From: a virus
Virus record (IMG/VR): IMGVR_UViG_3300045988_036188
Reading direction: 5' to 3' (one strand)
DNA length: 18,203 nucleotides
Below the pieces are notes generated by a model, which saw only the letters and a list, made by a program, of their open reading frames with translations, searched no databases and was not told the origin of the DNA. Positions 1 through 18,203 of this stretch are shown here, in pieces (position 1 is the first letter of the stretch; every line of letters starts with the position of its first letter). The position numbers were made by a program, and so were the translations under genes.

Positions 1-71
1 CCTGTCCCCCCGTTTCCCATGTACCTCCCCAGCGCCGCAGTCTTGTACGGGCTAGGGAGTACATGAGGAAC
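1..71. repeat. Left inverted terminal repeat (71 bp), exact reverse complement of 18133..18203
   Basis: Direct comparison: 1-71 (cctgtccccccgtttcccatgtacctccccagcgccgcagtcttgtacgggctagggagtacatgaggaac) equals the reverse complement of the last 71 nt. The match breaks at position 72. It contains an internal inverted pair, CATGTAC (18-24) and GTACATG (60-66). Confidence 0.9.
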
Positions 72-107
72 AAGAACAACATCATTCATATGTATATCTC
101 CTTTCTT
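1..107 (-). other. SD (AAAGGAG) plus ATG (plus 89..87) opening a 29-codon frame that runs off the left genome end without a stop codon; could be a terminal non-stop ORF or a short leftward RNA
   Basis: The minus strand reads aaagaaaggagatatacatATGaatgatgttgttcttgttcctcatgtactccctagcccgtacaag... to the end of the sequence. There is no in-frame stop. Confidence 0.3.
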
Positions 108-116
108 TGTGACTAC

Positions 117-145
117 ATTATAGCATAGGTGGTGAGCATATGCAA
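117..145 (-). promoter_or_regulatory. Leftward sigma70-like promoter (minus strand TTGCAT-17-TATAAT) next to the left terminus
   Basis: The minus strand reads cTTGCATatgctcaccacctatgcTATAATgtagtcac. The -35 lies at plus 140..145, the spacer is 17 nt, and the -10 lies at plus 117..122. Confidence 0.5.
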
Positions 146-157
146 GCACATATTATG

Positions 158-409
158 TTATTGCTTACGTACACGCTTAGGCTTCACACTATGCGCATAA
201 TACTTGCGGCGTACATAGTACATGAAGCACACGACGAACGCAAGCAGTAGAACGGGGTTACTTGTGACGCAATCAAAGACATACATAGCGCACTCTATAA
301 GCGTATCAATCAGCGCAAAAAGCAGCCGCAGAAGTTCGCTAAAGAAGCCGCCTATATTGTCCGTTAGGTTGTTAGCCGCTGTGTATACCTGTTCGCTGGT
401 GCTGTACAT
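158..409 (-). CDS. Small membrane protein (83 aa) with two hydrophobic segments and a basic C-terminal tail; function unknown
   Basis: Internal ATG of track ORF 158..544, preceded on the minus strand by aaaggagtaacaATG. The sequence ...SNPVLLLAFVVCFMYYV is followed by RRKYYAHSVKPKRVRKQ. The promoter lies just upstream on the minus strand. Confidence 0.55.
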   Translation of the reverse strand: MYSTSEQVYTAANNLTDNIGGFFSELLRLLFALIDTLIECAMYVFDCVTSNPVLLLAFVVCFMYYVRRKYYAHSVKPKRVRKQ

Positions 410-437
410 TGTTACTCCTTTCGGTTGGTGTACTATT

Positions 438-466
438 ATAATATAGCAATCGTGTACAGTTGTCAA
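438..466 (-). promoter_or_regulatory. Leftward promoter for the 158..409 gene (minus strand TTGACA-17-TATTAT)
   Basis: The minus strand reads tacTTGACAactgtacacgattgctaTATTATaatag. A second TTGACAA copy lies 14 nt further upstream (plus 475..480). This forms a TTGTCAAGT direct repeat on the plus strand. Confidence 0.5.
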
Positions 467-528
467 GTACATATTGTCAAGTGGTAAATGCGGCTTTATG
501 TAGGAAATATGGAGTACATAAACAGCTA

Positions 529-557
529 TTGCAAAGTGGTACATAGTGGCGTATATT
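529..557 (+). promoter_or_regulatory. Rightward early promoter (TTGCAA-17-TATATT)
   Basis: Reads TTGCAAagtggtacatagtggcgTATATT, about 50 nt upstream of the 607 ATG. It is divergent from the leftward promoter. Confidence 0.45.
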
Positions 558-606
558 GTAATTGCGCCGAAGGGAAGGCGCTAGAATACAACAGAAAGGG
601 ACGAAA

Positions 607-924
607 ATGAAACTCCGCAACATGAGCGCCACCGTTGACCATGTGGCATCTATCACGCTAAGGCTTGAGAATGGCGAGAACTTGCAACTTGAGAATGCAT
701 ATGTTCTCACCTCGTATGCGTCGCGTGTGGCTGTGTTCTGCAAGATGCGTTGCTATCTGCTTCCGCGCTATGACTGCAGCGTAACCACGTGGAAGCATGT
801 ACATGCGTTCATCAATGATTTTTGCGACTTCGTGCCCGATATGAGCGCTGCCGATATTCGCGCGACGGCGAAAGGTGCGGACGATGATAGCCCGTATTGG
901 TTTGCTGCGGGCATTGTTGAGTAG
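607..924 (+). CDS. Hypothetical early protein (105 aa)
   Basis: ATG preceded by cagaaagggacgaaaATG (SD AAAGGGA). This is an internal start of track ORF 562..924. No recognisable motif. Confidence 0.55.
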   Translation: MKLRNMSATVDHVASITLRLENGENLQLENAYVLTSYASRVAVFCKMRCYLLPRYDCSVTTWKHVHAFINDFCDFVPDMSAADIRATAKGADDDSPYWFAAGIVE

Positions 925-989
925 GCAACGATGGACGTGATTCTCGCTATCATTGTAAGTGTCAGTTAAACAAGTCAAAGGAGCCTACC

Positions 990-1148
990 ATGTTCTACGT
1001 AATCAAATATTACCAACTCAACAAAGAAACCGGGGTTTACGAGCTTAAACATATGCACTGTGATACGATCAAAGCAGCATGCGAATATCTTCAATTCATG
1101 GAAAAACATCCGTCTTACGTTTTCGTTTCCATGAAGAAAGTAGGGTGA
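990..1148 (+). CDS. Hypothetical small early protein (52 aa, MFYVIKYYQLNKETGVYELKHMHCDTIKAACEYLQFMEKHPSYVFVSMKKVG)
   Basis: Absent from the ORF track, presumably because it falls below the length cutoff. Strong SD caaaggagcctaccATG. Clean frame ending in TGA at 1146..1148. Confidence 0.55.
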   Translation: MFYVIKYYQLNKETGVYELKHMHCDTIKAACEYLQFMEKHPSYVFVSMKKVG

Positions 1149-1150
1149 CT

Positions 1151-1225
1151 ATGAACCCGGAAACCATATTCGCCATCATAGCATATGCAATCGGAATGGT
1201 TTACATTTGCAGGAGGTATCGATGA
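1151..1225 (+). CDS. Possible 24-aa hydrophobic micropeptide (MNPETIFAIIAYAIGMVYICRRYR)
   Basis: The ATG lies 2 nt after the upstream stop. Its own stop TGA overlaps the next ATG (ATGA at 1222-1225), suggesting translational coupling. The SD is weak. Confidence 0.25.
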   Translation: MNPETIFAIIAYAIGMVYICRRYR

Positions 1226-1410
1226 AACAAGAAAAGCAAGATTATTTAAATGGATACGAGCTTTCAAAGCTTCATGGTTTCATCAAAGCGAACGGTGATA
1301 TGCACGAGCATGGAAGCGTTCCTAAACATTTGAGCTATTGGGCTGAAAAAGGCTATATAGCTGGCATAGATGAAAGGGAGTTTAAAAGGGATTTAATTCT
1401 ATATTTTTAA
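1222..1410 (+). CDS. Hypothetical small early protein (62 aa)
   Basis: Reads gcAGGAGGtatcgATG, a strong SD with 5-nt spacing. The track ORF 1207..1410 begins at an upstream TTG. Confidence 0.6.
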   Translation: MKQEKQDYLNGYELSKLHGFIKANGDMHEHGSVPKHLSYWAEKGYIAGIDEREFKRDLILYF

Positions 1411-1450
1411 ATTTAGGCAACATGCCCATCTGTTAGAAAGGAGTAGTACA

Positions 1451-1774
1451 ATGGCGACTAAATTGGAAAAGAACGTTCGTAAGATTATCGACCATCATGG
1501 CGGCACGGTTGTGCAGCGCGGCGTAACGGGCGGCAATTGGAGCAACTGTGACGGTCTAGTAGAGGGGCGTTTGATTTGCGACAAGTATGAGCGTAACAAT
1601 TTGGCTATGTGGATTAAACACCATCATGATGCCGAATTGGTTGAGAGTACGTTCGGGTCATTTTACCAGTTGAAAGGTTATTGCATCGCCACCGGGGCGG
1701 GGTACGGGGGATGCGCGTACCGCCGTGCGAAGCAGGTATGGTATGCGGTCATCAAGATTGATGATGCGGACTAG
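1451..1774 (+). CDS. Hypothetical early protein (107 aa), His/Cys-rich
   Basis: SD reads gaaaggagtagtacaATG. Contains ...GGNWSNCDG... and HHH. No confident family assignment. Confidence 0.6.
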   Translation: MATKLEKNVRKIIDHHGGTVVQRGVTGGNWSNCDGLVEGRLICDKYERNNLAMWIKHHHDAELVESTFGSFYQLKGYCIATGAGYGGCAYRRAKQVWYAVIKIDDAD

Positions 1775-1800: not shown

Positions 1801-1854
1801 GCGGCTTGCAAGTGGGTTTTAATACTTGACAAGCCGCACTGCAAGGCGTAATAT
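1801..1854 (+). promoter_or_regulatory. Consensus promoter (TTGACA 1826..1831, 17-nt spacer, TAATAT 1849..1854) embedded in an imperfect 13-bp palindrome (gcggcttgcaagt / acttgacaagccgc)
   Basis: Reads aCTTGACAAGccgcactgcaaggcgTAATAT. The palindrome arms overlap the -35. It could be an operator and/or the terminator hairpin of the upstream gene. Confidence 0.55.
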
Positions 1855-1894
1855 ATGAGTTGCCATTAAGGTACACAACGGAAAGGATTTTATC

Positions 1895-2155
1895 ATGGCA
1901 CGCAACACGATTCAGAAGAAGTTCACCAACACGGAGGTGCGCGGGTACGTTATCAAGGACGGTCAGCCCGTGCAGGTTGCCTATCAGCTTGACAAGAAGT
2001 GCGGACTGAACACCGCGCAGGCGCTCATTCGCAAGCAGGAGCCTAGTTTTGCAGCCGTTGACGTTGTGGAGCATGAGCAGCTGTACAAGATGACGTTTGA
2101 GGACTTCAAGAAGTACGGCACCCCTTGCGACGCGACCGAAGCGGACGAGGACTAA
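1895..2155 (+). CDS. Small early protein (86 aa), Lys-rich N-terminal region and acidic C-terminal tail (DATEADED); candidate histone-like dsDNA-binding protein analogous to phi29 p6, or a DNA mimic
   Basis: SD reads cggaaaggattttatcATG. It sits two genes upstream of the terminal protein, as p6 does in phi29. The assignment rests on charge distribution and synteny only. Confidence 0.6.
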   Translation: MARNTIQKKFTNTEVRGYVIKDGQPVQVAYQLDKKCGLNTAQALIRKQEPSFAAVDVVEHEQLYKMTFEDFKKYGTPCDATEADED

Positions 2156-2207: not shown

Positions 2208-2624
2208 ATGGAGAACACCGAACTTACGACCATCACGAACGACGCGCCCGACATGGTTAAGGGCATGTACTGCTCGATCCATGCGGAGACGCAAGAGGAC
2301 AGGCTGGACATTTACGAGGCTGTTTCTAACTCCCTCTCCCTCGATGACATGGTGGGGAAGGTCGTGGAGGTTGAGAACGTCATTATTCAGCCCGTGGAAA
2401 TGACCGACAGTGCGACGGGCGAGATTACGCAGCGCAATCGCATCGTGCTTATCACCCCGAAGGGCGATGCCTACGGATGCACCAGCACGGGCGTTGAAAC
2501 CTCGATGAAGAACCTTTTCAGCATCGTAGGTTGCCCGCCGTGGAATCCCGCGATCAAGTTCGAAGTTGTGAAGAAGCAGGGGCGCAACGGGTACAAGTTC
2601 ACCAGCTTGCAGCGCCACAAGTAA
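2208..2624 (+). CDS. Putative ssDNA-binding protein (138 aa, OB-fold-like)
   Basis: SD reads cgaaaggaaaaaagacATG. It sits immediately upstream of the terminal protein, the position of SSB p5 in phi29. The beta-rich core (VGKVVEVENVIIQPVEM...RIVLITPKGDAYGC) suggests an OB fold, but this is weak. Confidence 0.45.
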   Translation: MENTELTTITNDAPDMVKGMYCSIHAETQEDRLDIYEAVSNSLSLDDMVGKVVEVENVIIQPVEMTDSATGEITQRNRIVLITPKGDAYGCTSTGVETSMKNLFSIVGCPPWNPAIKFEVVKKQGRNGYKFTSLQRHK

Positions 2625-2693: not shown

Positions 2694-3509
2694 ATGACCA
2701 AGGCTAACGAGAACGCCCGCGCCCGTGTTGCGGATGCAGAACGGAGGGCGCGGCGCAAGATCAAGAGATTGCAGAACAAGGGCGTAAGGACGGGCAGCGT
2801 AGAGCCGTTCAGGACGGTTGACCCGTCGAACACGAGGGCGCTAAACTCATACGCCAACCAGTTGGAAAAGTTCATATCACGTTCGACCCGTTTCGTTGCG
2901 GGGCGCGACGGCACCCCGATACCGTACACGGCTTATAGGGATTACAAACGGCTTGAAAGGCAATGGAACAGGGAACATAATAGATACTGGCAGAAGTTTG
3001 CCGCGCATCCGTTCCTGACTGCCTACGGCGAGAGCGATACCACATTGGGGATGCGTTCGGCTATGGCTCATGTTAAGGGCTTGCCGTTCGGAAACATAGA
3101 CTATCAGCGCCAACTACTCCCCGAGCAGATACGCAGCGAAGCGGATTTGCGGAAGCGAGCGCAGATTTTGAAGCGCGAACTATCCCCGACGTACCAGCGC
3201 AAGCGGATAACGCAGCTTCGCAAGAACCTTTTGGAACACGCCGCGACGTTCAACGACCCGCGAATACCCAACATGATTAGGAAGTTGAGCAACGAACAAC
3301 TGTTTGCGTTGCAGAACTTCACAAACTTCGTCCCCCTTTATTACAGGTACATAAACACCGACCGCGATAACGTGATGGGCGCACAGGCTGACGCTATGGA
3401 CGATGAAGCGCAGAAAGAGCATATGATACTGACCATTCAACAGGTTCAGAACCAGTACCCCAAGAAGCAGACCGGAAAACGCAAGCGTAAAAGCAAAAAA
3501 CGTAGGTAG
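2694..3509 (+). CDS. Terminal protein candidate (271 aa), highly basic with a C-terminal KRKRKSKKRR tail
   Basis: Perfect SD taAGGAGGTGAtccgATG. It lies directly upstream of, and is translationally coupled to, the protein-primed-type polymerase (stop 3507-3509, pol ATG 3512). Size and basic character match phage terminal proteins. The priming residue cannot be assigned from sequence. Confidence 0.6.
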   Translation: MTKANENARARVADAERRARRKIKRLQNKGVRTGSVEPFRTVDPSNTRALNSYANQLEKFISRSTRFVAGRDGTPIPYTAYRDYKRLERQWNREHNRYWQKFAAHPFLTAYGESDTTLGMRSAMAHVKGLPFGNIDYQRQLLPEQIRSEADLRKRAQILKRELSPTYQRKRITQLRKNLLEHAATFNDPRIPNMIRKLSNEQLFALQNFTNFVPLYYRYINTDRDNVMGAQADAMDDEAQKEHMILTIQQVQNQYPKKQTGKRKRKSKKRR

Positions 3510-3511
3510 CT

Positions 3512-5224
3512 ATGGAGTACGCCGCAGACTTCGAGACAACCACAGATATAAATGATTGTCGCGTTTGGGCGTGGTGCGTGTGCGAGATTGACAACCCCGA
3601 CGCACTAAGCTATGGCACGGACATTGCCACGTTTCTTGATTTCTGCAAGGTTCACGGCGGTACATATTATTTCCACAATGCTGCATTCGATTGTGAGTTC
3701 ATTATATGGTACCTGCTGACCAACGGATTTGAGTACAGCGAAAAGGCGAGGACAAAGACTTTCAAAACGCTCATATCAAACATGGGCAAGTTCTATCAGA
3801 TGAAGGTTTGCTTTGAGAAGAAGGGCAAGAATAAAGCGCTAACCTGCACATTCAAAGACAGCTTGAAGAAACTCCCCATGAAGGTATCGCAGATTGCAAA
3901 GGCTTTCGACCTCCCCATATCCAAGTTGGAGATTGACTATACGGAGTACCGCCCCGTAGGTCACGAGTTGACAGCGCAGGAACGAGACTACATCAGGAAC
4001 GACGTTCAGATCGTCGCTAGGGCGCTGCATCAGCAGTTCGGCAAGGGGCTTGACAGGCTCACCATCGGAAGCGACGCGCTCAACGGGTACAAGGACATAA
4101 TAGGCTCGAAGTGGGATGACTGGTTCCCTAAGATTCATCTGGAAATGGACGCGATGATACGCAAGGCGTATCGCGGCGGCTACACATACGCGAACCCTAG
4201 GTTTCAGGCTGACGAGGAACACGAGTACAGGCTGCAGGGCTACGGGGCTGCGTTTGACGTTAACTCGTTGTACCCCGACGTTATGTACAACAGACCGTTG
4301 CCAATCGGGCAGCCGATATATTTCCACGGAGAGTACAAGTACAACCCCCAATATCCCCTGTACATTCAATTCCTAACCTGCCATTGCAAGTTGAAGCCCG
4401 ACCACCTCCCCACGTTGCAGATTAAGAACAACCCGTTCTACTCCGAAACGGAGTACATCCATGACACGGAGGGAACAGTTGAGTTGGCTTTGACCAACAT
4501 AGACTTGGAAATACTCATGCAGCAGTACGACGTGACGGTGTTTTCGTACAACGGCGGGTACATGTTCGAGCAAGCCACTGGACTGTTCAAAGATTACATA
4601 GACTATTGGATGCACATTAAAGAAACTACCACGGGCGGTTTGCGACAGCTTGCGAAGCTCATGTTGAATTCACTTTATGGCAAGTTCGCCACGAACCCCG
4701 ACGTTACGCCGAAACTGCCTTACTTGAAAGAGGACGGTTCAGTTGGGTACAGATTGGGAGAGAAAGAGACGCGCGACCCCGTGTACACGCCTATGGGTTG
4801 CTTCATTACCGCATGGGCTAGGTACAAGACCATCAATGCAGCGCAAAGCGTATACGATAGGTTCATGTATTGTGACACGGACAGCATACACATTTGCGGC
4901 ACAGACATTCCCGAGGGTTTGGAGGTGCATCCTACACGTTTGGGCGCGTGGAAGCATGAGAGCAATTTCAGCATGGCTAAATATATCAGGGCTAAGACGT
5001 ACATGGAGAGAATCTATCAGGTTGGCAAGATGGTTGATGGCGAATACAGGATGGTTGACGTTCAGCCGTTCGATGACGTTAAGTGCGCTGGTATGCCAGA
5101 GGAGTTGAAGCGCATGGTGACGTTCGACAGTTTCAAGAGGGGCTTGCAGCTTCACGGGAAGTTGAAGCCAAGGCACGTTAGGGGCGGTATAGTGCTCGAA
5201 CCCATAACGTTCACGCTCACCTGA
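3512..5224 (+). CDS. Family B DNA polymerase, protein-primed (phi29-like) type, 570 aa
   Basis: Exo I DFETTTD, Exo II YFHNAAFDCEF, Exo III YIRNDVQIV, motif A DVNSLYPDVMY, motif B KLMLNSLYGKF, motif C YCDTDS and KxY (KYIRAKTYME) are all present. Length of about 570 aa and the adjacent terminal protein gene fit the protein-primed type. Confidence 0.95.
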   Translation: MEYAADFETTTDINDCRVWAWCVCEIDNPDALSYGTDIATFLDFCKVHGGTYYFHNAAFDCEFIIWYLLTNGFEYSEKARTKTFKTLISNMGKFYQMKVCFEKKGKNKALTCTFKDSLKKLPMKVSQIAKAFDLPISKLEIDYTEYRPVGHELTAQERDYIRNDVQIVARALHQQFGKGLDRLTIGSDALNGYKDIIGSKWDDWFPKIHLEMDAMIRKAYRGGYTYANPRFQADEEHEYRLQGYGAAFDVNSLYPDVMYNRPLPIGQPIYFHGEYKYNPQYPLYIQFLTCHCKLKPDHLPTLQIKNNPFYSETEYIHDTEGTVELALTNIDLEILMQQYDVTVFSYNGGYMFEQATGLFKDYIDYWMHIKETTTGGLRQLAKLMLNSLYGKFATNPDVTPKLPYLKEDGSVGYRLGEKETRDPVYTPMGCFITAWARYKTINAAQSVYDRFMYCDTDSIHICGTDIPEGLEVHPTRLGAWKHESNFSMAKYIRAKTYMERIYQVGKMVDGEYRMVDVQPFDDVKCAGMPEELKRMVTFDSFKRGLQLHGKLKPRHVRGGIVLEPITFTLT

Positions 5225-5406: not shown

Positions 5407-5431
5407 CAGTGCTTGCGAAGTGGGTTATGTT
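5403..5431 (+). promoter_or_regulatory. Late promoter (TTGACA-17-TATGTT) overlapping the RHH stop codon, flanked by a GTGCTTG direct repeat
   Basis: Reads aGTGCTTGACAGTGCTTGcgaagtgggtTATGTT. The -35 is at 5403..5408 and the -10 at 5426..5431. The ATG of the first late gene is at 5620. Confidence 0.5.
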
Positions 5432-12216: not shown

Positions 12217-12226
12217 AAGGGAGTGA

Positions 12227-13219
12227 ATGATGGCTACGGAATACACGCCGAACTACAATCTTGACCTGTACGCTTCGGCTGACAAGCCTAACCTGCGCGA
12301 CCAGTACAACGCCGCTATGGGCAAGATTGACACGCAGATGAAGAAGAGCGCGGATGACGTTACCAACGCCAACGCCAACGTTCTCACGCTGCAAACGCAG
12401 ATGACCGAAGCGCAGAAGGACATTTCGGCGCTGGAATCCACTGTGGAGACGCACGGGACGCAAATCACGGACGTTCAAAAGACGGCTGACGATGCGCTTT
12501 CCCTCGCAAAGACCAACGAGAGCGACATTGCGGACACGCAAGCCGACGTTACGTCGCTCACTGGTCGCGTGACCGCGGTTGAGGGTGCCGCGAAGAAGAA
12601 CGAGACGGGTATTGCTTCGCTTGACACCCGCATGGACGCGGCAGAGGGCGATATCACGGAAGCGCAGAACGACATTAACGGATTGCAGACTGCCGTGAAC
12701 GGGAAAGCACCGATCAACCACGCAAGCACCGACAACACCTATGGTCAGGGTTCGTCTACGAACTTCGGGCATTTGAAGGTGGCAGACAGCGGAAGCGCGG
12801 CGGCATCGTCTGGCACGGCGGCTTCGCCGAAAATGGTTGCTGACCAGATTTCAGCATTAAAGGCACTTCTGGCACCTCAGGCGCTGGAAGCTGCGCACAC
12901 TGTCAATTACAATGGCGGTATCACAGGAAGCGGCATCTTCTCAATCTACGCCAACTCGATTACCGACATTGTTTCTGTTATGCTGAAAAACAACTCGCTG
13001 TCCACACCTGGCACAGGTGGGTACAAAACCGCAACGTTGGGCACCATCCCCAGCGGATACCGCCCGACACGCCTTCTTACGTTCACCGCTTTCTCTGGTA
13101 ATGCGTATTTGCAGATTGAATCAAACGGAGCGGTTAAATTGTCGTTTGCAGACGATGTAGCCCATACGGCAGGTGCGGAAAACGGTTGTGGCTGTATGTT
13201 CTTCGGCAACAGTAGGTGA
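12227..13219 (+). CDS. Tail fibre / receptor-binding protein candidate (330 aa): N-terminal anchor, Ala/Thr-rich coiled-coil stalk, C-terminal globular domain
   Basis: Paralogous N-terminus as described above. The central heptad-like repeats (TEAQKDISALESTVETHGTQITDVQKTADDALSLAKTNESDIADTQADVTSLTGRVTAVEGAAKKNETGIASLDTRMDAAEGDITEAQNDINGLQTAVNGK) are followed by a Gly/Ser-rich distal domain. Confidence 0.6.
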   Translation: MMATEYTPNYNLDLYASADKPNLRDQYNAAMGKIDTQMKKSADDVTNANANVLTLQTQMTEAQKDISALESTVETHGTQITDVQKTADDALSLAKTNESDIADTQADVTSLTGRVTAVEGAAKKNETGIASLDTRMDAAEGDITEAQNDINGLQTAVNGKAPINHASTDNTYGQGSSTNFGHLKVADSGSAAASSGTAASPKMVADQISALKALLAPQALEAAHTVNYNGGITGSGIFSIYANSITDIVSVMLKNNSLSTPGTGGYKTATLGTIPSGYRPTRLLTFTAFSGNAYLQIESNGAVKLSFADDVAHTAGAENGCGCMFFGNSR

Positions 13220-13225: not shown

Positions 13226-14497
13226 ATGCCAAGTACCAGAACCATTTGCTATTACGCAATGTACGTTATCGGCGAGGTCGAATCCAACTGGAACTGGACA
13301 GCCGTGAACTACAACGACCCTATCACGATAGGGATGATGCAGTGGTATGGTACACGGGCTGCTGCGCTTCTCAACCGCATCAAAAACGAAATGCCAACTG
13401 CCTACGGGCAGTTGGCTGCTTCGTTGCGTTCGGACATTGAATCGCATGATGCCGGTAGTACGTGGTGGACTAGGCGTTACCTGAACAGGGACGAGGGAAA
13501 CAGCATCATAACTGTTTTCCAAGACGAGGAAAACCATGTGATTCAGGAGAATCAGGCTATAGCCGATTTCGAGGGGTACATTGCGACGCTTGAAGGCTGG
13601 GGAATGAGTCAGTCGTACCCGAAACCTTTGATATTCGCAATGAGCATGTACCATCAATCACCAGCAAGTGCGGGGCAGGTCATTGCAACGGCGGGCGGCA
13701 GCGCCGACCTCGATAGGATATACGGCGTTTGCATGAACCACGGGGTTCTTGGGCAGTACAGGAATCGCTACAACACCGTGTACCAGAGATTGAAGGATTG
13801 GGACGGTGAGAGCAACCCGCCTGATTTCGGTCAGAGCGGAGACGTTGACACAACGCCCGGGGGCAACACCCCTGGGATTAGCACAGAAAAAAGCAAGTTG
13901 GGGTACATCATTCAGAATGGAGATACGCTCATTCTTTACGGCAAAGACGAGTACGAAAAAGGCGTTATATTCTATCCCGCATCTGGACAGGTTTGGATTA
14001 ACGGGTACAACGCGAACGGAACTGACATTGGCGGCGGCAACGAGGGCGGCGGTTCGGAGAGCGGAAGCGAAGCGCAGAACGCCATATGCGAATTGTACCG
14101 CTCATGGCTTGACAGGTTCGCGTACTCGCAGGGTGCTGGACGGCTTGACCCCATAAGCAGCGGATATGGTGACTGTTCTTCTACGGTGTGGTTCGCGTAC
14201 CAGCAGGTTGCTGGAATCGACGTTGGCACGTGGACGGGCGCTATGGCGGGCAAGGGGACGAAGATAGCAAGCGGCTATTCTGGTGACAACCTACCCATCG
14301 AGGATATGGAGCCAGCCGATTTGGTGCTGATTATGTGGAATGGTTGGAACGGCTCATTTGACCACGTTGAACTGTACATGGGCAACAATGAACTTTGGGG
14401 ACATGGTGGACCCGATTACGGACCAGACCAAACCACAACCGATGCTAGGAACTATCCACGGTACATGTATTATTGGGAGGTGAGACGGTACCTATGA
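13226..14497 (+). CDS. Tail-associated peptidoglycan hydrolase (423 aa): N-terminal glycosidase-like region, Gly-rich linker, C-terminal NlpC/P60- or CHAP-like cysteine peptidase
   Basis: Its position matches phi29 gp13. The C-terminal region (…DPISSGYGDCSSTVWFAYQQVAG…FDHVELYMGNNELWGHGG) has the Cys…His…His spacing of NlpC/P60/CHAP enzymes. The linker reads GGGNEGGGSESGSE. Confidence 0.6.
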   Translation: MPSTRTICYYAMYVIGEVESNWNWTAVNYNDPITIGMMQWYGTRAAALLNRIKNEMPTAYGQLAASLRSDIESHDAGSTWWTRRYLNRDEGNSIITVFQDEENHVIQENQAIADFEGYIATLEGWGMSQSYPKPLIFAMSMYHQSPASAGQVIATAGGSADLDRIYGVCMNHGVLGQYRNRYNTVYQRLKDWDGESNPPDFGQSGDVDTTPGGNTPGISTEKSKLGYIIQNGDTLILYGKDEYEKGVIFYPASGQVWINGYNANGTDIGGGNEGGGSESGSEAQNAICELYRSWLDRFAYSQGAGRLDPISSGYGDCSSTVWFAYQQVAGIDVGTWTGAMAGKGTKIASGYSGDNLPIEDMEPADLVLIMWNGWNGSFDHVELYMGNNELWGHGGPDYGPDQTTTDARNYPRYMYYWEVRRYL

Positions 14498-15519
14498 GCG
14501 ACAGTATGTATTACGATTCTCACGACATTATGACGCGCAACGCTATGTTCAATTTCGTTATCGGCGGGCGTGGCACTGGCAAGACGTATGATTTCAAGTA
14601 CAAACGAATCAGGCATTTCATAAAGACTGGTAAGCAGTTCATATACTTGCGCAGATACAAGTCGGAGTTCGATGACAAGCAGGAGTTCTTTCAGGATATT
14701 GTTGACCGCTTTCCATCGTGGGAGTTCAAAGTTGAGGGAATGAAAGGGTACATCAGAAAGGTTGCAATAGGTGATGAAAAGCCAGAGAAATGGCGCGTGC
14801 TATGTTTCTTCATCACGTTGGCAAACGCACTGACCAAAAAGTCCGTACCCTATCCCGACGTTGATATGATAGGATTTGACGAGTTCATCATTGACAAGGG
14901 TTCGCTGCATTACTTGCAAAACGAGTTGAAGCAGTTCCAAGACTTCTACAACACGGTTGACCGATTTCAGGACAGGGTTAAGGTTATGTTCATGGCTAAC
15001 GCCGTGGCGCTCACCAATCCGTACTTCATCGGATGGAGGTTGAAGCCGAGGAAGGGAAAGCGCTTTCTCATGGCGCACAAAGGGTACATGTGTGTAGAGA
15101 TTGTGCAGAGCGAGCGGTTCAGGGCGCACGTGGACACGACAAGATTCGGTCAGATGATACGTGGAACGTCATATTACGATTACGCAGTGGGAAACATGTT
15201 CTACGATGACAATGACAAGTTCATCGCCAAGAAGTCGGAGGAAGCGCGATTCTACTTCGCGTTGCGGTTCGACAACAGGACGGTCGGTGTTTGGGTGGAC
15301 TACACGGAGGGTGTTTACTACGTGTCGCGCAGGTACCCGAAAGATGCGCTGGTTTACGTCTTGACAAAATCGGATATGCAGCCTAACCTGCTTATGATAG
15401 AGAAGTCTAGCGTGGTGTTGCGGAGCGTGCGCAAGCTGTACATGCAGGGAAGCGTGTTCTTCGACACTATCGAGACGCGAGAGTTCTTCAACAACGTGTT
15501 CGACTATCTGGGATTTTAG
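14494..15519 (+). CDS. DNA packaging ATPase (phi29 gp16-like encapsidation protein), 341 aa
   Basis: Walker A FNFVIGGRGTGKTY. The gp16-like stretch FIKTGKQFIYLRRYKSEFDD and a Walker B-like MIGFDEFI are present. SD reads tGGGAGGTGAgacggtacctATG, with ATGA overlapping the upstream stop. Confidence 0.9.
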   Translation: MSDSMYYDSHDIMTRNAMFNFVIGGRGTGKTYDFKYKRIRHFIKTGKQFIYLRRYKSEFDDKQEFFQDIVDRFPSWEFKVEGMKGYIRKVAIGDEKPEKWRVLCFFITLANALTKKSVPYPDVDMIGFDEFIIDKGSLHYLQNELKQFQDFYNTVDRFQDRVKVMFMANAVALTNPYFIGWRLKPRKGKRFLMAHKGYMCVEIVQSERFRAHVDTTRFGQMIRGTSYYDYAVGNMFYDDNDKFIAKKSEEARFYFALRFDNRTVGVWVDYTEGVYYVSRRYPKDALVYVLTKSDMQPNLLMIEKSSVVLRSVRKLYMQGSVFFDTIETREFFNNVFDYLGF

Positions 15520-15532: not shown

Positions 15533-15715
15533 ATGGACACTGCTACGTTCGATATGGTGATCACGGCTATCGGCAGCGTGGGGTTCCCTATCGTGGCTTG
15601 CTGCTTCATGGGGTGGCTTTACGTCAAGATGAACGACACGCTGAAAGACCTCACGCTTGCCATTACCGCGCTCACCACGAAGTTCGATGACCATGTGGAC
15701 AAGATGGAGGGTTAG
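15533..15715 (+). CDS. Holin candidate (60 aa, single TMD)
   Basis: Perfect SD ttaGGAAGGAGGttgaaATG. The TMD reads MVITAIGSVGFPIVACCFMGWLYV. It lies immediately upstream of the endolysin. Confidence 0.65.
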   Translation: MDTATFDMVITAIGSVGFPIVACCFMGWLYVKMNDTLKDLTLAITALTTKFDDHVDKMEG

Positions 15716-15716
15716 A

Positions 15717-16664
15717 ATGATCGGCACTTTTATGAAGCGTCTTAGAATCAGCGCAATCACGGCGCTTGCCGTGTTCGCTATGCTGGTCGGCACAGCCGCG
15801 CCCGCATACGCATGGACGGAACATGACAACTTCATCGCAGACGGTCACGGCTGGTTCCAACCGCAGAACCTTGTAGTGCATTCCACGGCGAACGAGGGAG
15901 CGACCGCATGGAATCACGTCCAATACTGGCAGCGAATGGGCAACGACACGCCTATGGCGCAATGGGTTGCTGACTGGACTGACGGCGGCACGGTGTACCA
16001 GACCATGAGCGGGAACGCCGTTGCGTGGCACGTTGGCAACGGAAACTGGTACAGCGTCGGCATCGAGATTTGCGAAGCCACCAACCAGCACGACTTCGAG
16101 GTTGGATTCGACACGGCGGCGCAATGGTGCGCCGTGTACCTCAACCAGCAGGGTTGGGGCATCGACCGAATGGTTTCCCACAACGAAGCGCGTTACGTGT
16201 GGGGCGGCACAGACCACGTTGACCCTATTCCGTACTTCGCAAAGTGGGGCAAGACTTGGGGCGATTTCGAGAACCTTGTTCAGTATTACCTCGACAACCC
16301 GTCTGCTATGACCTATGACGATGGCGAGGGTTCCGCGCCCGATACGCCAGAAGCGCCTGTTCCTGACAGCATCGAGGAAGCCGCATACGGTGTGTTGCAG
16401 GGATGGTACGGAAACCAGCCAGAGCGACAGTACAATCTTGAAGCTGCTGGTTATGACTATCAGACCGTGCAGGACTACGTGAACCGTGTGTATTACGGCA
16501 TCGGCGGCGGTTCAACTGGTTCCGATTGGATTGCCGACGTTGCATACGACGTGTACCTTGGCAACTACGGAAACGGTCAGGACAGGTACGACCGCCTTAC
16601 GGCTGCTGGTTATGACTATCAGACCGTGCAGGACTACGTGAACCGTGTGTATTACGGCATCTAG
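15717..16664 (+). CDS. Endolysin: N-terminal signal peptide, N-acetylmuramoyl-L-alanine amidase (Amidase_2/PGRP-like), two C-terminal CW_7 cell-wall-binding repeats (315 aa)
   Basis: SD reads aagatGGAGGGttagaATG. The N-terminus MIGTFMKRLRISAITALAVFAMLVGTAAPAYA|WTEHD has an AxA signal-peptidase site. Amidase_2-like features are …LVVHSTA…AWHVGNGNWYSVGIEICE…SHNEARYVWGGTDHVDP. Two GxYGN…R…L.AAGYDYQTVQDYVNRVYYGI repeats match the Cpl-7-type CW_7 motif. Confidence 0.85.
   Translation: MIGTFMKRLRISAITALAVFAMLVGTAAPAYAWTEHDNFIADGHGWFQPQNLVVHSTANEGATAWNHVQYWQRMGNDTPMAQWVADWTDGGTVYQTMSGNAVAWHVGNGNWYSVGIEICEATNQHDFEVGFDTAAQWCAVYLNQQGWGIDRMVSHNEARYVWGGTDHVDPIPYFAKWGKTWGDFENLVQYYLDNPSAMTYDDGEGSAPDTPEAPVPDSIEEAAYGVLQGWYGNQPERQYNLEAAGYDYQTVQDYVNRVYYGIGGGSTGSDWIADVAYDVYLGNYGNGQDRYDRLTAAGYDYQTVQDYVNRVYYGI
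16443..16502 (+). repeat. 60-bp perfect direct repeat, copy 1 (second copy at 16602..16661), encoding the core of the two CW_7 repeats
   Basis: gctgctggttatgactatcagaccgtgcaggactacgtgaaccgtgtgtattacggcatc occurs twice and is identical at the nucleotide level. Confidence 0.9.
16602..16661 (+). repeat. 60-bp perfect direct repeat, copy 2
   Basis: Identical to 16443..16502. Confidence 0.9.
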
Positions 16665-16667
16665 CTT

Positions 16668-16697
16668 GCAGCCCTCGGAAGAGGGCTGCTTTTCTTC
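16668..16697 (+). terminator. Rho-independent terminator of the late operon (gcagccctc-ggaa-gagggctgc + ttttcttc)
   Basis: Perfect 9-bp stem with a 4-nt loop and a T-tract, starting 4 nt after the endolysin stop. Confidence 0.85.
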
Positions 16698-16726
16698 TTG
16701 ACAAGGCAAGTGGTTTTTGATACTAT
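16698..16726 (+). promoter_or_regulatory. Right-end operon promoter (TTGACA-17-TACTAT)
   Basis: Reads tCTTGACAAGgcaagtggtttttgaTACTAT. It shares the extended -35 CTTGACAAG with the promoter at 1826. Confidence 0.6.
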
Positions 16727-16762
16727 ACTATTGCAGACAAAATCGATTGAAAGGACTGTGCT

Positions 16763-17050
16763 ATGGCTAGATTGTTCTATTCCTACCGTGACGGAGAGGT
16801 GTACATTCTCCACAAGAGTTGCCCGTTGGAACTTCTCATGGACGAGCAAGCTGGTGGTAATGGGCTGCTGATTTACGCCAGCAAGGAACTGTTCGAGATT
16901 GTCGAGTACATGGACGGGGAGGAGAGCGGGTTCACCACTAGGGTGAAGCCGAAAACCAGCGAACCGTTGAGCGGAATCATGTTCGACATGGACAAGGCTG
17001 TGAGCGAGTCCTTCGAGTACGTTTCAACGGTGACGGGGAAGAAATGCTAG
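16763..17050 (+). CDS. Hypothetical protein (95 aa), acidic
   Basis: SD reads gattgAAAGGActgtgctATG. First gene after the right-end promoter. Confidence 0.6.
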   Translation: MARLFYSYRDGEVYILHKSCPLELLMDEQAGGNGLLIYASKELFEIVEYMDGEESGFTTRVKPKTSEPLSGIMFDMDKAVSESFEYVSTVTGKKC

Positions 17051-17226
17051 TCTGCATAGCCGTGATTCTGTTCGGTACCGCGCTAGTCTATTGTTCGTTG
17101 ACAAGCACGGATTGCAACACGTGTTGGAGACGTGAGCGCGAGAACATACGCGCAGCACGTGCAGGTGTGGGCATCGTCATTATCGGATGCCTGTTGGTTT
17201 GTTATCAGTTCGCGTATTGGGGGTAA
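17044..17226 (+). CDS. Small two-TMD membrane protein (60 aa)
   Basis: The start overlaps the upstream stop (ATGCTAG). Hydrophobic segments are LVCIAVILFGTALVYCSL and GVGIVIIGCLLVCYQFAYW. Confidence 0.5.
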   Translation: MLVCIAVILFGTALVYCSLTSTDCNTCWRRERENIRAARAGVGIVIIGCLLVCYQFAYWG

Positions 17227-17227
17227 G

Positions 17228-17530
17228 ATGGTTGCAGAGTTCATGGAGTTTGAGACACCGAACGAGCCACAGATGGGTACAGTGAGTTCCATTCAGGACA
17301 AGTACAACAGCATGATGCTTGATTTGAATGATGACTTGCAGGACGAGATTGGTACGCGTCGAGAACAGTTCGATTCCATTTCAAAGACTTGTGATGATTT
17401 GTACACACGAATTGGACGGGTTGATGTTGAAATGATGACAAGAACAGAAAGGAACTTAAAACTTGCGGTTATCGGTATGACGATGGGGATGATTGGAATA
17501 TGCGCAAGCGTGGCTTCTATGATTTTGTAG
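17228..17530 (+). CDS. Coiled-coil protein with C-terminal membrane anchor (100 aa)
   Basis: SD reads ttgGGGGTAAGATG. The C-terminus reads LKLAVIGMTMGMIGICASVASMIL. It is an internal start of track ORF 17132..17530. Confidence 0.5.
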   Translation: MVAEFMEFETPNEPQMGTVSSIQDKYNSMMLDLNDDLQDEIGTRREQFDSISKTCDDLYTRIGRVDVEMMTRTERNLKLAVIGMTMGMIGICASVASMIL

Positions 17531-17562
17531 AATGTGCTGATTCAAATACGAAAGGAGCATCT

Positions 17563-17748
17563 ATGCTATCTGCGCATGAGGATGTTAAGTACGAATACTG
17601 GTGCGACGGTGACCTTATTGTTTCGTTCAAAGATAAGAACAAGGCTATAAACCACTACAAGAAACGATGCAAACAAGCACCCACATCCTTGCACACAATC
17701 TTCAAAGTTGTTCCTGTACGTAAAAGCGTTGTTCAATGGGCGCCGTAG
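17563..17748 (+). CDS. Hypothetical small basic protein (61 aa)
   Basis: SD reads cgAAAGGAGcatctATG. It is an internal start of track ORF 17500..17748. Confidence 0.55.
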   Translation: MLSAHEDVKYEYWCDGDLIVSFKDKNKAINHYKKRCKQAPTSLHTIFKVVPVRKSVVQWAP

Positions 17749-17816
17749 ATGGGGTGCGTGCGGTACGAGTCCATGAAGCTCAACAACTGGTTTCGGGATA
17801 TTGTTAGGATGGGATT

Positions 17817-18065
17817 ATGATCATCACGACTAAGAATGGCGACATGGTAGATACAGTGCAGATTATCGAAGAAAACGTATATACCATAGATGATGTTAAA
17901 TACGCGGTGGAAACTGACATGTATATTGCTGCAACGGTTCAGATACGAATTTGCGATACTGGAAAGAAACAGCTGGAAGTATCAGACCCGGAAGTTGGAA
18001 AAGAAGCTCAGTACCATCTTCGACAGTTCATCAAGTACATGAAACAGTTGGGGAGGTATTACTGA
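17817..18065 (+). CDS. Hypothetical protein (82 aa), last gene before the right ITR
   Basis: SD reads gttAGGATGGGattATG. No motif recognised. Confidence 0.55.
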   Translation: MIITTKNGDMVDTVQIIEENVYTIDDVKYAVETDMYIAATVQIRICDTGKKQLEVSDPEVGKEAQYHLRQFIKYMKQLGRYY

Positions 18066-18132
18066 TGGCTGAGCCGGTTATAATCAGCGCTAGTCGCCGT
18101 CTACGGCGATAATGTTGTACTTTGTTCCCTCC

Positions 18133-18203
18133 GTTCCTCATGTACTCCCTAGCCCGTACAAGACTGCGGCGCTGGGGAGGTACATGGGAAACGGGGGGAC
18201 AGG
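18133..18203. repeat. Right inverted terminal repeat (71 bp)
   Basis: Exact reverse complement of 1..71. Confidence 0.9.

What the first reader, a model, noticed from the sequence alone, without database searches (positions are those of the whole stretch)
1..18203. Window looks like an entire linear protein-primed phage genome bounded by 71-bp perfect ITRs
Positions 1-71 are the exact reverse complement of 18133-18203, and the identity ends abruptly at position 72. A candidate terminal protein gene (2694..3509) is translationally coupled to a family-B polymerase with the full motif set of protein-primed enzymes (3512..5224). Connector, tail knob and packaging ATPase genes of the phi29 type are also present. 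Both 5' ends begin CC, which would allow initiation opposite the second template base with a one-base slide-back. The few terminal nucleotides may be missing from an assembly. Unlike phi29, early and late blocks are colinear on one strand, which is closer to the Cp-1 or Av-1 style of organisation.
Basis: partly seen in the sequence, partly recalled or inferred. Interest (0 to 1): 0.7.

Follow-up and report, generated by a model that had tools for sequence, protein, structure and literature searches.

The report
Near-complete phi29-like gut phage genome
The window is an essentially complete genome of a small phi29-type phage that copies its linear DNA from protein-capped ends, probably infects the gut bacterium Eggerthella or a relative, and also carries a previously undescribed, highly conserved small structured RNA that looks like the packaging RNA of phage phi29.

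Summary
Bases 1-71 are the exact reverse complement of 18133-18203, and identity stops at base 72. The window encodes a phi29-type set: SSB, terminal protein, family-B polymerase with TPR1/TPR2, capsid, tail knob, connector, lower collar and gp16 ATPase.

Independent metagenome assemblies of relatives end within a few bases of the same terminus. The repeat motif is found only at contig ends, and no relative sits on a contig longer than about 19 kb. These are real physical ends.

- The window lacks about 4-5 terminal bases per end. Relatives start ACACTCTGGCCCCCC and Av-1 starts TGTGTCTGTGCCCCCC, so the "CC" slide-back argument does not stand.
- One conserved gene (158-409) runs leftward.
- The closest relatives are phi29-like phages of Actinobacteria (Reje, Anjali, Av-1). 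Two segments 90-95% identical to Eggerthella phage LE1-1 point to the host.

As a phage genome this is a new, uncultivated member of a known kind.

The unexpected part is at 5403-5603: a promoter, a 117-nt domain, then a terminator hairpin. It is the most conserved block in the genome, has strong covariation, and has two loops that stay complementary. Its architecture matches phi29 pRNA, but the Rfam pRNA model does not detect it.

The parts
1..71 (.). Left inverted terminal repeat and presumed replication origin. It contains an imperfect palindrome and a C6 run. It lacks about 4-5 true terminal bases.
   Evidence: exact reverse complement of 18133-18203; the motif occurs only at contig termini in relatives, and both ends of a genome carry the same variants; hairpin potential, z about -2 to -5 in most variants.
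18133..18203 (.). Right inverted terminal repeat. At this end the palindrome extends 7 nt inward, to 18126.
   Evidence: z -5.2 and -5.7. The flank GGAGGGAACAAAGTACA is conserved in all relatives.
158..409 (-). Leftward gene for an 83-aa small membrane protein. A promoter-like site lies at 466-438 (-).
   Evidence: reading frame conserved down to about 30% amino-acid identity, with an in-frame 11-codon deletion in distant relatives. TTGACA-17-TATTAT, 11 of 12 matches.
529..1774 (+). Variable early accessory block: promoter-like site 529-557, DUF8033 gene 607-924, and small ORFs 990-1148, 1222-1410 and 1451-1774.
   Evidence: this block is replaced in relatives (identity 0.1-0.3); 952-1204 is 90.5% identical to Eggerthella phage LE1-1 35-287.
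1826..2155 (+). Promoter-like site 1826-1854 and the first gene of the conserved replication block (1895-2155).
   Evidence: TTGACA-17-TAATAT; conservation resumes at about 1800.
2208..2624 (+). phi29-type single-stranded-DNA-binding protein, followed by a terminator-like hairpin at 2655-2671.
   Evidence: PF17427 Phi29_Phage_SSB, E 1.4e-14..
2694..3509 (+). Terminal protein (271 aa), the primer for replication.
3512..5224 (+). Protein-primed family-B DNA polymerase with TPR1 and TPR2.
5239..5406 (+). Ribbon-helix-helix DNA-binding protein. Its stop codon abuts the -35 box of the next promoter.
   Evidence: RHH_1, E 2.6e-6. Anjali has an RHH gene at the same place.
5403..5431 (+). Sigma-70-like promoter (TTGACA-17-TATGTT) of the small RNA and the late operon.
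   Evidence: the -35 box is nearly invariant in relatives; equivalent promoters lie upstream of the RNA in distant clades.
5437..5553 (+). Domain I of a conserved structured RNA (117 nt). It has a closing helix made from its 5' and 3' ends, a four-way junction, a bulge loop UUGCUA plus a small hairpin (E-like), and a long hairpin with loop AUUAGCA (D-like).
   Evidence: most conserved block of the genome; 95.6% of cells paired, 19 of 37 pairs changed on both sides, 0 of 500 shuffles as good; loop-loop complementarity kept by compensatory changes; homologues in all relatives and in Curtobacterium phage Reje.
5562..5603 (+). GC-rich hairpin plus T-run. It is an intrinsic terminator and the domain-II-like 3' hairpin of the RNA. 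It lies 16 nt upstream of the next gene.
   Evidence: A hairpin is present with different sequences in distant clades.
5620..5973 (+). Scaffold-like protein, assigned by position only.
   Evidence: RBS AAGGAG. It occupies the same position as scaffold genes in Cp-1 and phi29. No family hit.
5963..7408 (+). Major capsid protein.
   Evidence: PF25622 Phi29_MCP, E 4.7e-109..
7419..9596 (+). Tail knob (gp9-like).
9596..10495 (+). Connector/portal (gp10-like) with a basic N-terminus, MGRNRKGKRN.
   Evidence: PF05352, E 3e-56..
10492..11244 (+). Lower collar (gp11-like).
   Evidence: phrog_3225 and phrog_5472.
11234..13219 (+). Three genes of unknown or fibre-like function (11234/11258-11860, 11857-12216, and 12227-13219 coiled-coil). 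This is a variable region.
13226..14497 (+). Tail-associated lysin with an NlpC/P60 domain.
   Evidence: 33% identity over 433 aa to Av-1.
14494..15519 (+). gp16-type packaging ATPase.
   Evidence: PF05894, E 4e-72, full length. for the start codon.
15533..16664 (+). Lysis genes: a YvrJ-like small membrane protein (15533-15715) and an endolysin with Amidase_2 plus two CW_7 repeats. The listed ORF starts at 15657. The likely start is the ATG at 15732, which precedes a signal-like segment.
16668..16726 (+). Terminator-like hairpin (16668-16689) followed by a promoter-like site (16698-16726).
16763..18065 (+). Right-end small genes of unknown function. 17817-18065 is 96% identical in protein to LE1-1 gp20.

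Best explanation
The window is a virtually complete genome of an uncultivated phi29-like podophage. About 4-5 bp are missing at each end. The molecule is linear double-stranded DNA bounded by inverted repeats of about 75 bp that serve as replication origins.

Shown by homology:
- It encodes a phi29-type SSB, a terminal protein and a TPR1/TPR2-bearing family-B polymerase.
- It encodes phi29-type capsid, connector, collar, tail knob and gp16 ATPase.

Inferred from what is established for phi29, Cp-1 and adenovirus:
- A terminal-protein/polymerase heterodimer initiates at each end by linking the first nucleotide to a hydroxyl residue near the tip of the C-terminal helical bundle of the terminal protein. 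The candidates are Tyr219 and neighbours Tyr216/217 or Thr222.
- The polymerase then copies the genome by strand displacement, which keeps the two repeats identical.
- The terminal reiteration seen in relatives (ACAC) would allow a two-base slide or jump back. This is speculative.

Transcription, inferred from consensus sites:
- One leftward gene and an early rightward operon start at the left end.
- A second promoter at about 1826 serves the replication genes.
- A promoter at 5403 makes a roughly 165-nt structured RNA that ends at a terminator. Read-through of this terminator expresses the late genes.
- A separate right-end unit starts at 16698.

The RNA most likely acts as a prohead/packaging RNA that bridges connector and ATPase (my estimate is about 0.4). 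Otherwise it is a cis-acting leader that controls read-through into the late genes.

The host is probably Eggerthella or a related gut member of the Coriobacteriia.
For: Ends:
- The repeat is perfect.
- The repeat motif occurs 8 of 8 times at contig termini in IMG/VR, at both ends of three contigs.
- About 20 metagenome contigs of relatives stop inside or at the repeat.
- At least three separate contigs (L085, L088/L116 and L127) begin at the same base, ACACTCTG.
- Repeat variants are identical at the two ends of a genome although they differ between genomes.
- 120 terminal-protein clusters, some with hundreds of members, are never on contigs longer than 18.2 kb.
- The terminal sequence resembles the end recorded for Av-1, and C-runs occur near the ends of phi29 and Cp-1.

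Replication genes.

Structural genes.

Gene order is identical to PineapplePizza, Reje, Anjali and Av-1.

Host: two segments are 90-95% identical in DNA to Eggerthella phage LE1-1, while core proteins are only 26-43% identical.

RNA.
Against: - No experimental evidence exists for protein linkage.
- The true terminal bases are not in the window.
- One 2.4-kb metagenome contig (L122) carries 49 unrelated AT-rich bases beyond ACAC. This is probably a chimera, but it is unexplained.
- One 19.1-kb IMG/VR contig (L008) has a different 3.7-kb left arm and no repeat at its end.
- For the RNA: the Rfam pRNA model does not detect it, although it scores phi29 at 145 bits.
- The RNA has a four-way junction, not a three-way junction.
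- It sits directly between a promoter and the late genes. Av-1, Anjali and RHph_N3_8 have a terminator hairpin at the same place (in Av-1 preceded by annotated promoter signals) but without this RNA. This fits a regulatory leader equally well.
Confidence: 0.9

Rival explanations
1. The small RNA at 5437-5603 is not a packaging RNA. It is a cis-acting leader, either an attenuator or antiterminator (put-like or riboswitch-like) or a lambda 6S-type terminated late leader, and it sets how much transcription from the 5403 promoter reads into the late genes. In this reading the two complementary loops form an intramolecular tertiary contact.
For: - The order promoter, RNA, terminator is followed 16 nt later by the first late gene, and no other late promoter was found.
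- Av-1, Anjali and RHph_N3_8 have a terminator hairpin at the same site (in Av-1 preceded by annotated promoter signals) but lack the 117-nt domain.
- There is no match to Rfam Phage_pRNA.
- A junction with kissing loops followed by a terminator is also typical of riboswitch architecture (general knowledge).
Against: - The predicted transcription start coincides with the first base of the closing helix, and the domain is 116-120 nt in every clade, as in pRNA domain I.
- The order closing helix, bulge loop, small hairpin, long hairpin loop matches pRNA.
- No alternative anti-terminator pairing was evident by inspection. No systematic search was made.
- In Reje no clear terminator follows the RNA.
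Confidence: 0.35
2. The repeats are an assembly artefact of a circular or circularly permuted genome, or a duplicated contig end.
For: - Eggerthella phage LE1-1 and RHph_N3_8 are deposited as circular records.
- Assemblers can create terminal repeats.
Against: - Artefactual overlaps are direct repeats, whereas this one is inverted.
- The same inverted repeat and the same boundary recur in many independent assemblies from different projects, always at contig ends.
- Contigs break exactly at the repeat boundary or within it.
- No contig joins the right flank to the left flank.
Confidence: 0.03
3. The sequence is an integrated or plasmid-like element of a bacterium, not a free phage genome.
For: The 2024 review lists phi29-like sequences deposited as Enterococcus and Clostridium plasmids (PMC11476376).
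Against: - No Pfam match to an integrase, partition or plasmid-replication family was found among the ORFs scanned.
- No relative lies on a contig above about 19 kb.
- A search of 185,579 species genomes for the repeat gave only two hits, in unrelated organisms. About one is expected by chance for 20 specified bases.
Confidence: 0.03
4. The palindromic repeats are covalently closed hairpin telomeres, or rolling-hairpin origins, and not protein-capped ends.
For: The terminal 75-80 nt fold into a long imperfect hairpin.
Against: - No protelomerase or nickase family was detected among the ORFs scanned.
- A complete terminal-protein and polymerase pair is present.
- The hairpin does not reach the terminal bases.
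- PineapplePizza, an isolated phi29-like phage, also has a hairpin inside its 101-bp repeat.
Confidence: 0.02

Closest known systems
phi29-like phages of Actinobacteria: Actinomyces phage Av-1 (Dybvigvirus), Curtobacterium phage Reje, Arthrobacter phage Anjali (Anjalivirus), Microbacterium phage PineapplePizza
   Same: - Genome of 16.6-19.7 kb.
- Same gene order: accessory genes, SSB, terminal protein, polymerase, small (RHH) gene, gap, scaffold, capsid, knob, connector, collar, fibre/lysin, ATPase, lysis and small genes.
- Best protein matches for the terminal protein (27-28%), capsid (36-41%), knob, collar and ATPase (38-40%).
- Long repeats in Av-1 (52 bp) and PineapplePizza (101 bp, with an internal hairpin).
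- The Av-1 end TGTGTCTGTGCCCCCC resembles ACACTCTGGCCCCCC.
- Reje carries a syntenic homologue of the RNA.
   Different: - No nucleotide-level similarity.
- The polymerase is closer to Firmicutes phages (53% to Hungatella CH17P1, 50% to phi29) than to these phages (42-47%).
- The source is the human gut and the host is inferred to be in the Coriobacteriia.
- Av-1, Anjali and PineapplePizza give no hit to the RNA model.
Bacillus phage phi29 (Salasmaviridae)
   Same: - All replication and morphogenesis protein families.
- C-run near the ends.
- A roughly 170-nt RNA made of a 117-nt domain closed by its own ends plus a 3' terminator hairpin, with two complementary loops.
   Different: - phi29 has 6-bp repeats and divergent early and late operons, and its pRNA gene is at the left end.
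- The RNA here is not detected by the Rfam pRNA model, has an extra hairpin at the junction, and lies at the boundary between early and late genes.
Eggerthella phage LE1-1 (Guelinviridae)
   Same: - Colinear phi29-like genome.
- Two small-gene segments are 90-95% identical in DNA, which implies a shared host or gene pool.
   Different: - Core proteins are only 26-43% identical.
- No terminal-protein match was found by tblastn.
- There is no RNA-model hit and no gap after the polymerase gene.
Streptococcus phage Cp-1
   Same: - Long repeat (236 bp), mostly one-strand layout, and a promoter cluster before the scaffold gene.
- Its terminal CATGTACTCCCCC resembles CATGTACCTCCCC at window 18-30.
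   Different: The proteins are much more distant: polymerase 32%, capsid 31%, no terminal-protein or collar match.

Membership tests
phi29-like protein-primed podophages (broad sense, as in PMC11476376) | Small (about 16-20 kb) linear dsDNA genome with inverted terminal repeats | tested here: met
   18,203 bp with a 71-bp perfect repeat. The termini are reproduced in independent assemblies.
phi29-like protein-primed podophages (broad sense, as in PMC11476376) | Terminal protein gene homologous to phi29 gp3, next to the polymerase gene | tested here: met
   Profile against PDB 2EX3_B, E 4.8e-11. hhalign 97.8%. Foldseek top hit 2EX3_B. 8 of 120 family members hit Pfam Phi-29_GP3. The window protein alone gives no Pfam hit.
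phi29-like protein-primed podophages (broad sense, as in PMC11476376) | Family-B polymerase with TPR1 and TPR2 insertions and exonuclease motifs | tested here: met
   End-to-end alignment with phi29 DNAP at 50% identity. The TPR2 segment NPDVTPKLPYLKEDGSVGYRLGE is conserved.
phi29-like protein-primed podophages (broad sense, as in PMC11476376) | phi29-type capsid, connector, lower collar, tail knob and gp16 ATPase | tested here: met
   All exceed the Pfam cut-offs, or reach PHROG E values of 1e-23 or lower.
phi29-like protein-primed podophages (broad sense, as in PMC11476376) | Protein covalently bound to both 5' ends | not testable with these tools
   This needs virion DNA and a protease-dependent gel-entry test.
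Salasmaviridae / Guelinviridae (ICTV families) | Close genome-wide relatedness to family members | tested here: not met
   - There is no nucleotide similarity apart from two short LE1-1 segments.
- Core proteins are 25-50% identical to phi29 and 26-43% to LE1-1, no closer than to unclassified actinophages.
- Formal ICTV metrics were not computed.
Prohead/packaging RNA (Rfam RF00044 Phage_pRNA) | Detectable by the family covariance model | tested here: not met
   There is no hit at E <= 1 on the whole window, or at E <= 10 on 5425-5615. The phi29 control scores 145 bits.
Prohead/packaging RNA (Rfam RF00044 Phage_pRNA) | Roughly 117-120-nt domain closed by pairing of its 5' and 3' ends, followed by a dispensable 3' hairpin | tested here: met
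   Domain I is 116-120 nt in all clades, and its closing helix has 4 of 8 covarying pairs. The hairpin plus T-run lies at 5562-5603.
Prohead/packaging RNA (Rfam RF00044 Phage_pRNA) | Two loops (a bulge loop before a small hairpin, and a hairpin loop) with at least 3-4 complementary bases that covary | tested here: met
   The pairs are UGCUA/UAGCA, UGCCA/UGGCA, GCCA/UGGC and CCC/GGG in four lineages. Whether the pairing is between molecules cannot be told from sequence.
Prohead/packaging RNA (Rfam RF00044 Phage_pRNA) | Three-way junction and CCA bulge in the closing helix (features listed in PMC12670572) | tested here: not met
   The model has a four-way junction with an extra 3-5-bp hairpin, and a CAA bulge on the 3' strand.
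Prohead/packaging RNA (Rfam RF00044 Phage_pRNA) | Bound to proheads and required for packaging | not testable with these tools
   An experiment is needed.

The most novel reading that the evidence does not exclude
The conserved RNA at 5437-5603 is a true packaging (prohead) RNA, or a functional equivalent. It would be encoded at the boundary between early and late genes in a lineage of gut and soil actinobacterial phi29-like phages, including the cultured Curtobacterium phage Reje.

That would extend RNA-dependent DNA packaging beyond the Bacillus and Cytobacillus phages, the only group in which the held literature reports pRNAs. It would also provide a second, very divergent pRNA architecture.
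Probability: 0.4. Interest if true: 0.75.

Novelty: new member of a known kind. Interest (0 to 1): 0.5.

Why it matters
As a genome it adds a well-delimited, near-complete representative of an abundant human-gut lineage of phi29-like phages. It has defined ends and a likely Eggerthella-type host, which is useful for taxonomy and for attempts at isolation.

Its terminal protein and polymerase are a divergent, apparently complete protein-priming pair, and the priming residue may be a tyrosine.

The RNA is the part that could change a view. The reviews and searches I read report pRNA only in Bacillus-type phages. The GenBank record of Av-1 does annotate a 'packaging RNA', but its structural support is weak. 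A covariation-supported RNA with pRNA-like architecture in actinobacterial phages would make two questions testable. One is whether RNA-dependent packaging is ancestral to the whole phi29-like group. The other is whether these phages use a new kind of late-gene RNA switch.

Tried and rejected
- pRNA at the left end, by analogy with phi29. A strong leftward promoter at 466-438 suggested this, but the downstream sequence is a conserved protein-coding gene.
- Rfam scans of the window and of the RNA region gave only sub-threshold chance hits. These were miRNA models on the repeat hairpin and D12-methyl at 14 bits against a cut-off of 57.
- The terminal protein alone against PDB sequences gave nothing. 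The family profile was needed.
- A search for the exact 40-mer of the repeat in IMG/VR gave nothing. A degenerate 21-mer worked.
- A search for the repeat in species genomes gave two hits, in a Clostridiales bin and an Anaeromyxobacter MAG. I took these as chance and did not examine them.
- tblastn with the endolysin, to find the host, was uninformative.
- The repeat hairpin as a transcription terminator was rejected. There is no T-run, and a separate terminator-like hairpin lies just inside the right repeat.
- The 19.1-kb contig L008 was considered as a possible 'larger host contig'. It shares 1963-15194 with the window but has a different left arm of leftward ORFs without Pfam matches and without the repeat. 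This is neither host-like nor explained.
- The RNA model found nothing convincing in LE1-1, CH17P1, PineapplePizza, Anjali, RHph_N3_8, Av-1, Cp-1 or phi29.
- The 'packaging RNA' annotated in Av-1 (16295-16402) folds no better than shuffled sequence and overlaps ORFs.

Full report
**Observation**

Positions 1-71 are the exact reverse complement of 18133-18203, and identity ends at base 72. The window has 52% G+C, no tRNA genes and no Rfam family above threshold. Apart from one gene, all plausible genes lie on the + strand.

**Gene content**

Pfam and PHROGs identify the following:
- a phi29-type SSB (2208-2624)
- a family-B polymerase of the organellar/viral type (3512-5224)
- an RHH protein (5239-5406)
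- Phi29_MCP (5963-7408)
- tail knob (7419-9596)
- connector (9596-10495)
- lower collar (10492-11244)
- a P60-type tail lysin (13226-14497)
- the gp16 ATPase (14494-15519)
- a YvrJ-like small membrane protein
- an Amidase_2 + CW_7 endolysin

The polymerase aligns with phi29 DNAP from residue 3 to 569 at 50% identity. The alignment covers Exo I-III, DxxSLYP, KLMLNSLYGKF, YCDTDS, KTY, TPR1 and TPR2.

**Terminal protein**

The ORF 2694-3509 gives no Pfam hit on its own, and only a weak PHROG hit. It matches 'DNA terminal protein' genes of actinophages at 25-28% identity.

- An exhaustive search returned 342 relatives.
- A profile of 120 of them hits one PDB sequence significantly, the phi29 terminal protein (E 4.8e-11).
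- Eight members hit Pfam Phi-29_GP3 directly.
- hhalign against phi29 gp3 gives 97.8% probability over residues 6-208.
- The AlphaFold model is confident (pLDDT 93, pTM 0.85), and phi29 TP is its only probable Foldseek match.

If the hhalign alignment is extended without gaps, phi29 Ser232 falls on a column that is Tyr in 79% of the family. In the window this is Ile220, flanked by Tyr219. The only low-confidence loop of the bundle is 222-226. The priming residue is therefore inferred, not shown.

**Are the ends real?**

- A 21-mer from the repeat occurs eight times in IMG/VR. Every occurrence is within 65 nt of a contig end and points outward, and three contigs carry it at both ends.
- A 17-mer from the conserved right flank retrieved about 20 further contigs of relatives from metagenome assemblies. 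All stop inside the repeat or exactly at its boundary.
- Contigs L085, L088/L116 and L127 start at the same base, ACACTCTG(G)CCCCCC, 4 nt beyond the window end. Others start 1-2 nt beyond it.
- The more distant 75%-polymerase clade ends TATGCCCCCC.
- The deposited end of Actinomyces phage Av-1 is TGTGTCTGTGCCCCCC.
- Within each genome the two repeats carry the same variants, although repeats differ between genomes. This is the pattern expected when each end is regenerated from the other.
- Terminal-protein clusters representing over a thousand sequences are never found on contigs longer than 18.2 kb.
- One IMG/VR contig has a Nextera adapter fused to position 16 at both ends. This is an artefact, not a flank.

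Two loose ends remain. L122 has 49 unrelated AT-rich bases beyond ACAC. L008 has a different left arm.

I conclude that the molecule is linear with defined ends and that the window lacks about 4-5 bases per end. The ACAC of relatives (TGTG in Av-1) would instead allow a two-base step back, which is speculation.

**The repeat itself**

The repeat is an imperfect palindrome. Folded as DNA it gives z -3.1 at the left end and -5.2 to -5.7 at the right end, where pairing continues 7 nt beyond the repeat. Eleven of 14 natural variants keep a hairpin (z about -2 to -5), using two alternative inner stems. PineapplePizza also has a hairpin inside its 101-bp repeat. The segment CATGTACCTCCCC resembles the Cp-1 terminus. 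The function is unknown. A binding site for an origin protein, or a fold in the displaced strand, are both possible.

**Relatives and host**

In the phage collection searched (GenBank phage records of August 2025) the only nucleotide matches are two short segments of Eggerthella phage LE1-1. These are 952-1204 at 90.5% and 17749-18090 at 95% identity, and each carries a small gene. The core proteins of the two phages are only 26-43% identical. This indicates recent gene exchange and hence a shared host range. It is the basis for proposing Eggerthella or a relative as the host.

The terminal protein, capsid, knob, collar and ATPase are closest to actinobacterial phi29-like phages (Reje, Anjali, RHph_N3_8, Av-1, PineapplePizza). 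The polymerase is closest to Hungatella phage CH17P1 and phi29. Gene order matches the actinobacterial group.

Near-identical and graded relatives are abundant in IMG/VR and ENA gut assemblies. The lineage has been sampled but not described.

**Transcription signals (consensus matches only)**

- A leftward promoter at 466-438 precedes the conserved leftward gene 158-409.
- Rightward promoters lie at 529, 1826, 5403 and 16698.
- Terminator-like hairpins lie at 2655 and 16668.
- The block from about 800 to 1800 is replaced in relatives.

**The unexpected element**

The 213-nt gap between the RHH gene and the scaffold-like gene is the most conserved 200-nt block of the genome. It is 94-97% identical in relatives whose coding DNA is about 80-85% identical. 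Indels of 1 nt among relatives exclude a coding function.

It consists of:
- a promoter at 5403-5431
- a 117-nt domain at 5437-5553
- an 8-nt linker
- a GC-rich hairpin with a T-run at 5562-5603
- 16 nt further on, the next start codon

Homologues found by nhmmer and by a covariance model lie at the same position in every relative. These include the 75% and 66% polymerase-identity clades. Curtobacterium phage Reje has a hit at E about 0.06, located exactly in the syntenic gap.

On the model-fitted alignment of 20 distinct sequences:
- 95.6% of cells are paired.
- 19 of 37 pairs show changes on both sides.
- No shuffle out of 500 reaches the observed values.
- Versions with the partner slid by 1-3 columns pair in 34-50% of cells.

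The caveat is that the alignment was fitted to this structure. However, an independent RNAalifold run on MAFFT alignments recovers the same closing, C-like and E-like helices with covariation.

The fold is:
- a closing helix made of the first and last 8 nt, extended by two 3-bp segments
- a small hairpin
- a helix carrying a bulge loop (UUGCUA) topped by a 3-bp hairpin with a conserved GUGAWA loop
- a 12-bp hairpin with loop AUUAGCA

The bulge loop and the hairpin loop are complementary. They stay complementary through compensatory changes: UGCUA/UAGCA, UGCCA/UGGCA, GCCA/UGGC and CCC/GGG.

Domain size, helix order, complementary loops and the 3' terminator hairpin all parallel phi29 pRNA, which has a 117-120-nt domain I and 174 nt in total (PMC5066667). 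The connector has a basic N-terminus (MGRNRKGKRN), like phi29 gp10 (MARKRS) and Reje. Anjali, PineapplePizza and LE1-1, which gave no RNA hit, lack it. The role of the phi29 RKR motif in pRNA binding is from my own knowledge.

Evidence against membership of the pRNA family:
- The Rfam pRNA model does not see the RNA, although it scores phi29 at 145 bits.
- The junction is four-way.
- The element sits between a promoter and the late genes.
- Av-1, Anjali and RHph_N3_8 have a terminator hairpin at the same site (in Av-1 preceded by annotated promoter signals) without this domain.

I therefore hold two readings: packaging RNA (about 0.4) and cis-acting late-gene leader (about 0.35), with the remainder for some other function.

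The literature I could read reports pRNAs only in Bacillus and Cytobacillus phages (PMC5066667, PMC11476376, PMC12670572). The Av-1 record annotates a 'packaging RNA' at a different site, but it folds no better than shuffled sequence.

**Verdict**

The finding is correct and well supported. It describes a new but ordinary member of the phi29-like phages, closest to the actinobacterial group. The terminal bases are incomplete and one gene runs leftward. The structured RNA at 5437-5603 is the feature that deserves follow-up.

Noticed in passing
window 5403-5603: A promoter, a 117-nt structured RNA domain and a terminator hairpin. This is the most conserved block of the genome. It has strong covariation and two loops that stay complementary, and it resembles phi29 pRNA in architecture. 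It is absent from Rfam.
   Followed up: yes
L148 (Curtobacterium phage Reje) 3966-4069: A syntenic weak hit of the RNA model (19.7 bits, E about 0.06). Its closing helix has a completely different sequence (GAUACCUAG/CUAGGUAUC), but it has the same helix order and a GGGCUGAUACCC hairpin. It overlaps the annotated start of gp05.
   Followed up: partly
window 952-1204 and 17749-18090: Two segments are 90.5% and 95% identical in DNA to Eggerthella phage LE1-1, and each carries a small gene of unknown function. The rest of the two genomes is only distantly related. This implies recent exchange and a shared host.
   Followed up: partly
window 1-80 and 18124-18203: The terminal repeat is itself an imperfect palindrome, and at the right end the pairing extends beyond the repeat. 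Most natural variants keep a hairpin through two alternative inner stems. PineapplePizza also has a hairpin in its repeat. The function is unknown.
   Followed up: partly
window 18-30; L152 (Cp-1) 5-17; L151 (Av-1) 1-16; L092 (phi29) 8-17: Near-terminal sequence motifs are shared across distant phi29-like phages. CATGTAC(C)TCCCC occurs in the window and in Cp-1. TCTGxGCCCCCC occurs in relatives of the window and in Av-1. phi29 has a C-run at the equivalent place.
   Followed up: no
L122 (OGYS01009146.1), first 49 nt in outward orientation: One short metagenome contig continues 49 AT-rich bases beyond the ACAC terminus. It is probably a chimera, but it is unexplained.
   Followed up: partly
L008 1-3771 (IMGVR_UViG_3300045988_054355, 19,127 nt): A close relative (97% identical over window 1963-12828) has a different, longer left arm of leftward ORFs. 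These ORFs have no Pfam matches, and there is no terminal repeat at the contig end.
   Followed up: partly
L005/L048 and L026, contig ends: Nextera transposase adapter sequence is fused to the phage repeat at the ends of public IMG/VR contigs. This creates artificially extended 'repeats'.
   Followed up: yes
window 3512-5224 compared with the other core genes: The polymerase is closest to Firmicutes phages (53% to Hungatella CH17P1, 50% to phi29). The terminal protein and the structural proteins are closest to actinobacterial phages. This suggests a mosaic history.
   Followed up: no
L151 (Av-1) 4471-4611; L149 (Anjali) 4993-5294; L150 (RHph_N3_8) 5589-5743: Other actinobacterial phi29-like phages have a strong terminator hairpin in the gap immediately upstream of the scaffold gene. 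In Av-1 it follows the annotated promoter signals. A short terminated transcript ahead of the late genes may be a general design in this group.
   Followed up: partly
window 5467-5541: A sub-threshold resemblance (14 bits, cut-off 57) to Rfam D12-methyl RNA, including UUGCUA and AGCA in two loops. This is probably chance.
   Followed up: no
L151 (Av-1) 16295-16402: The GenBank record annotates a 'packaging RNA' that overlaps minus-strand ORFs. It folds no better than shuffled sequence (z +0.8) and is not hit by Rfam pRNA.
   Followed up: partly
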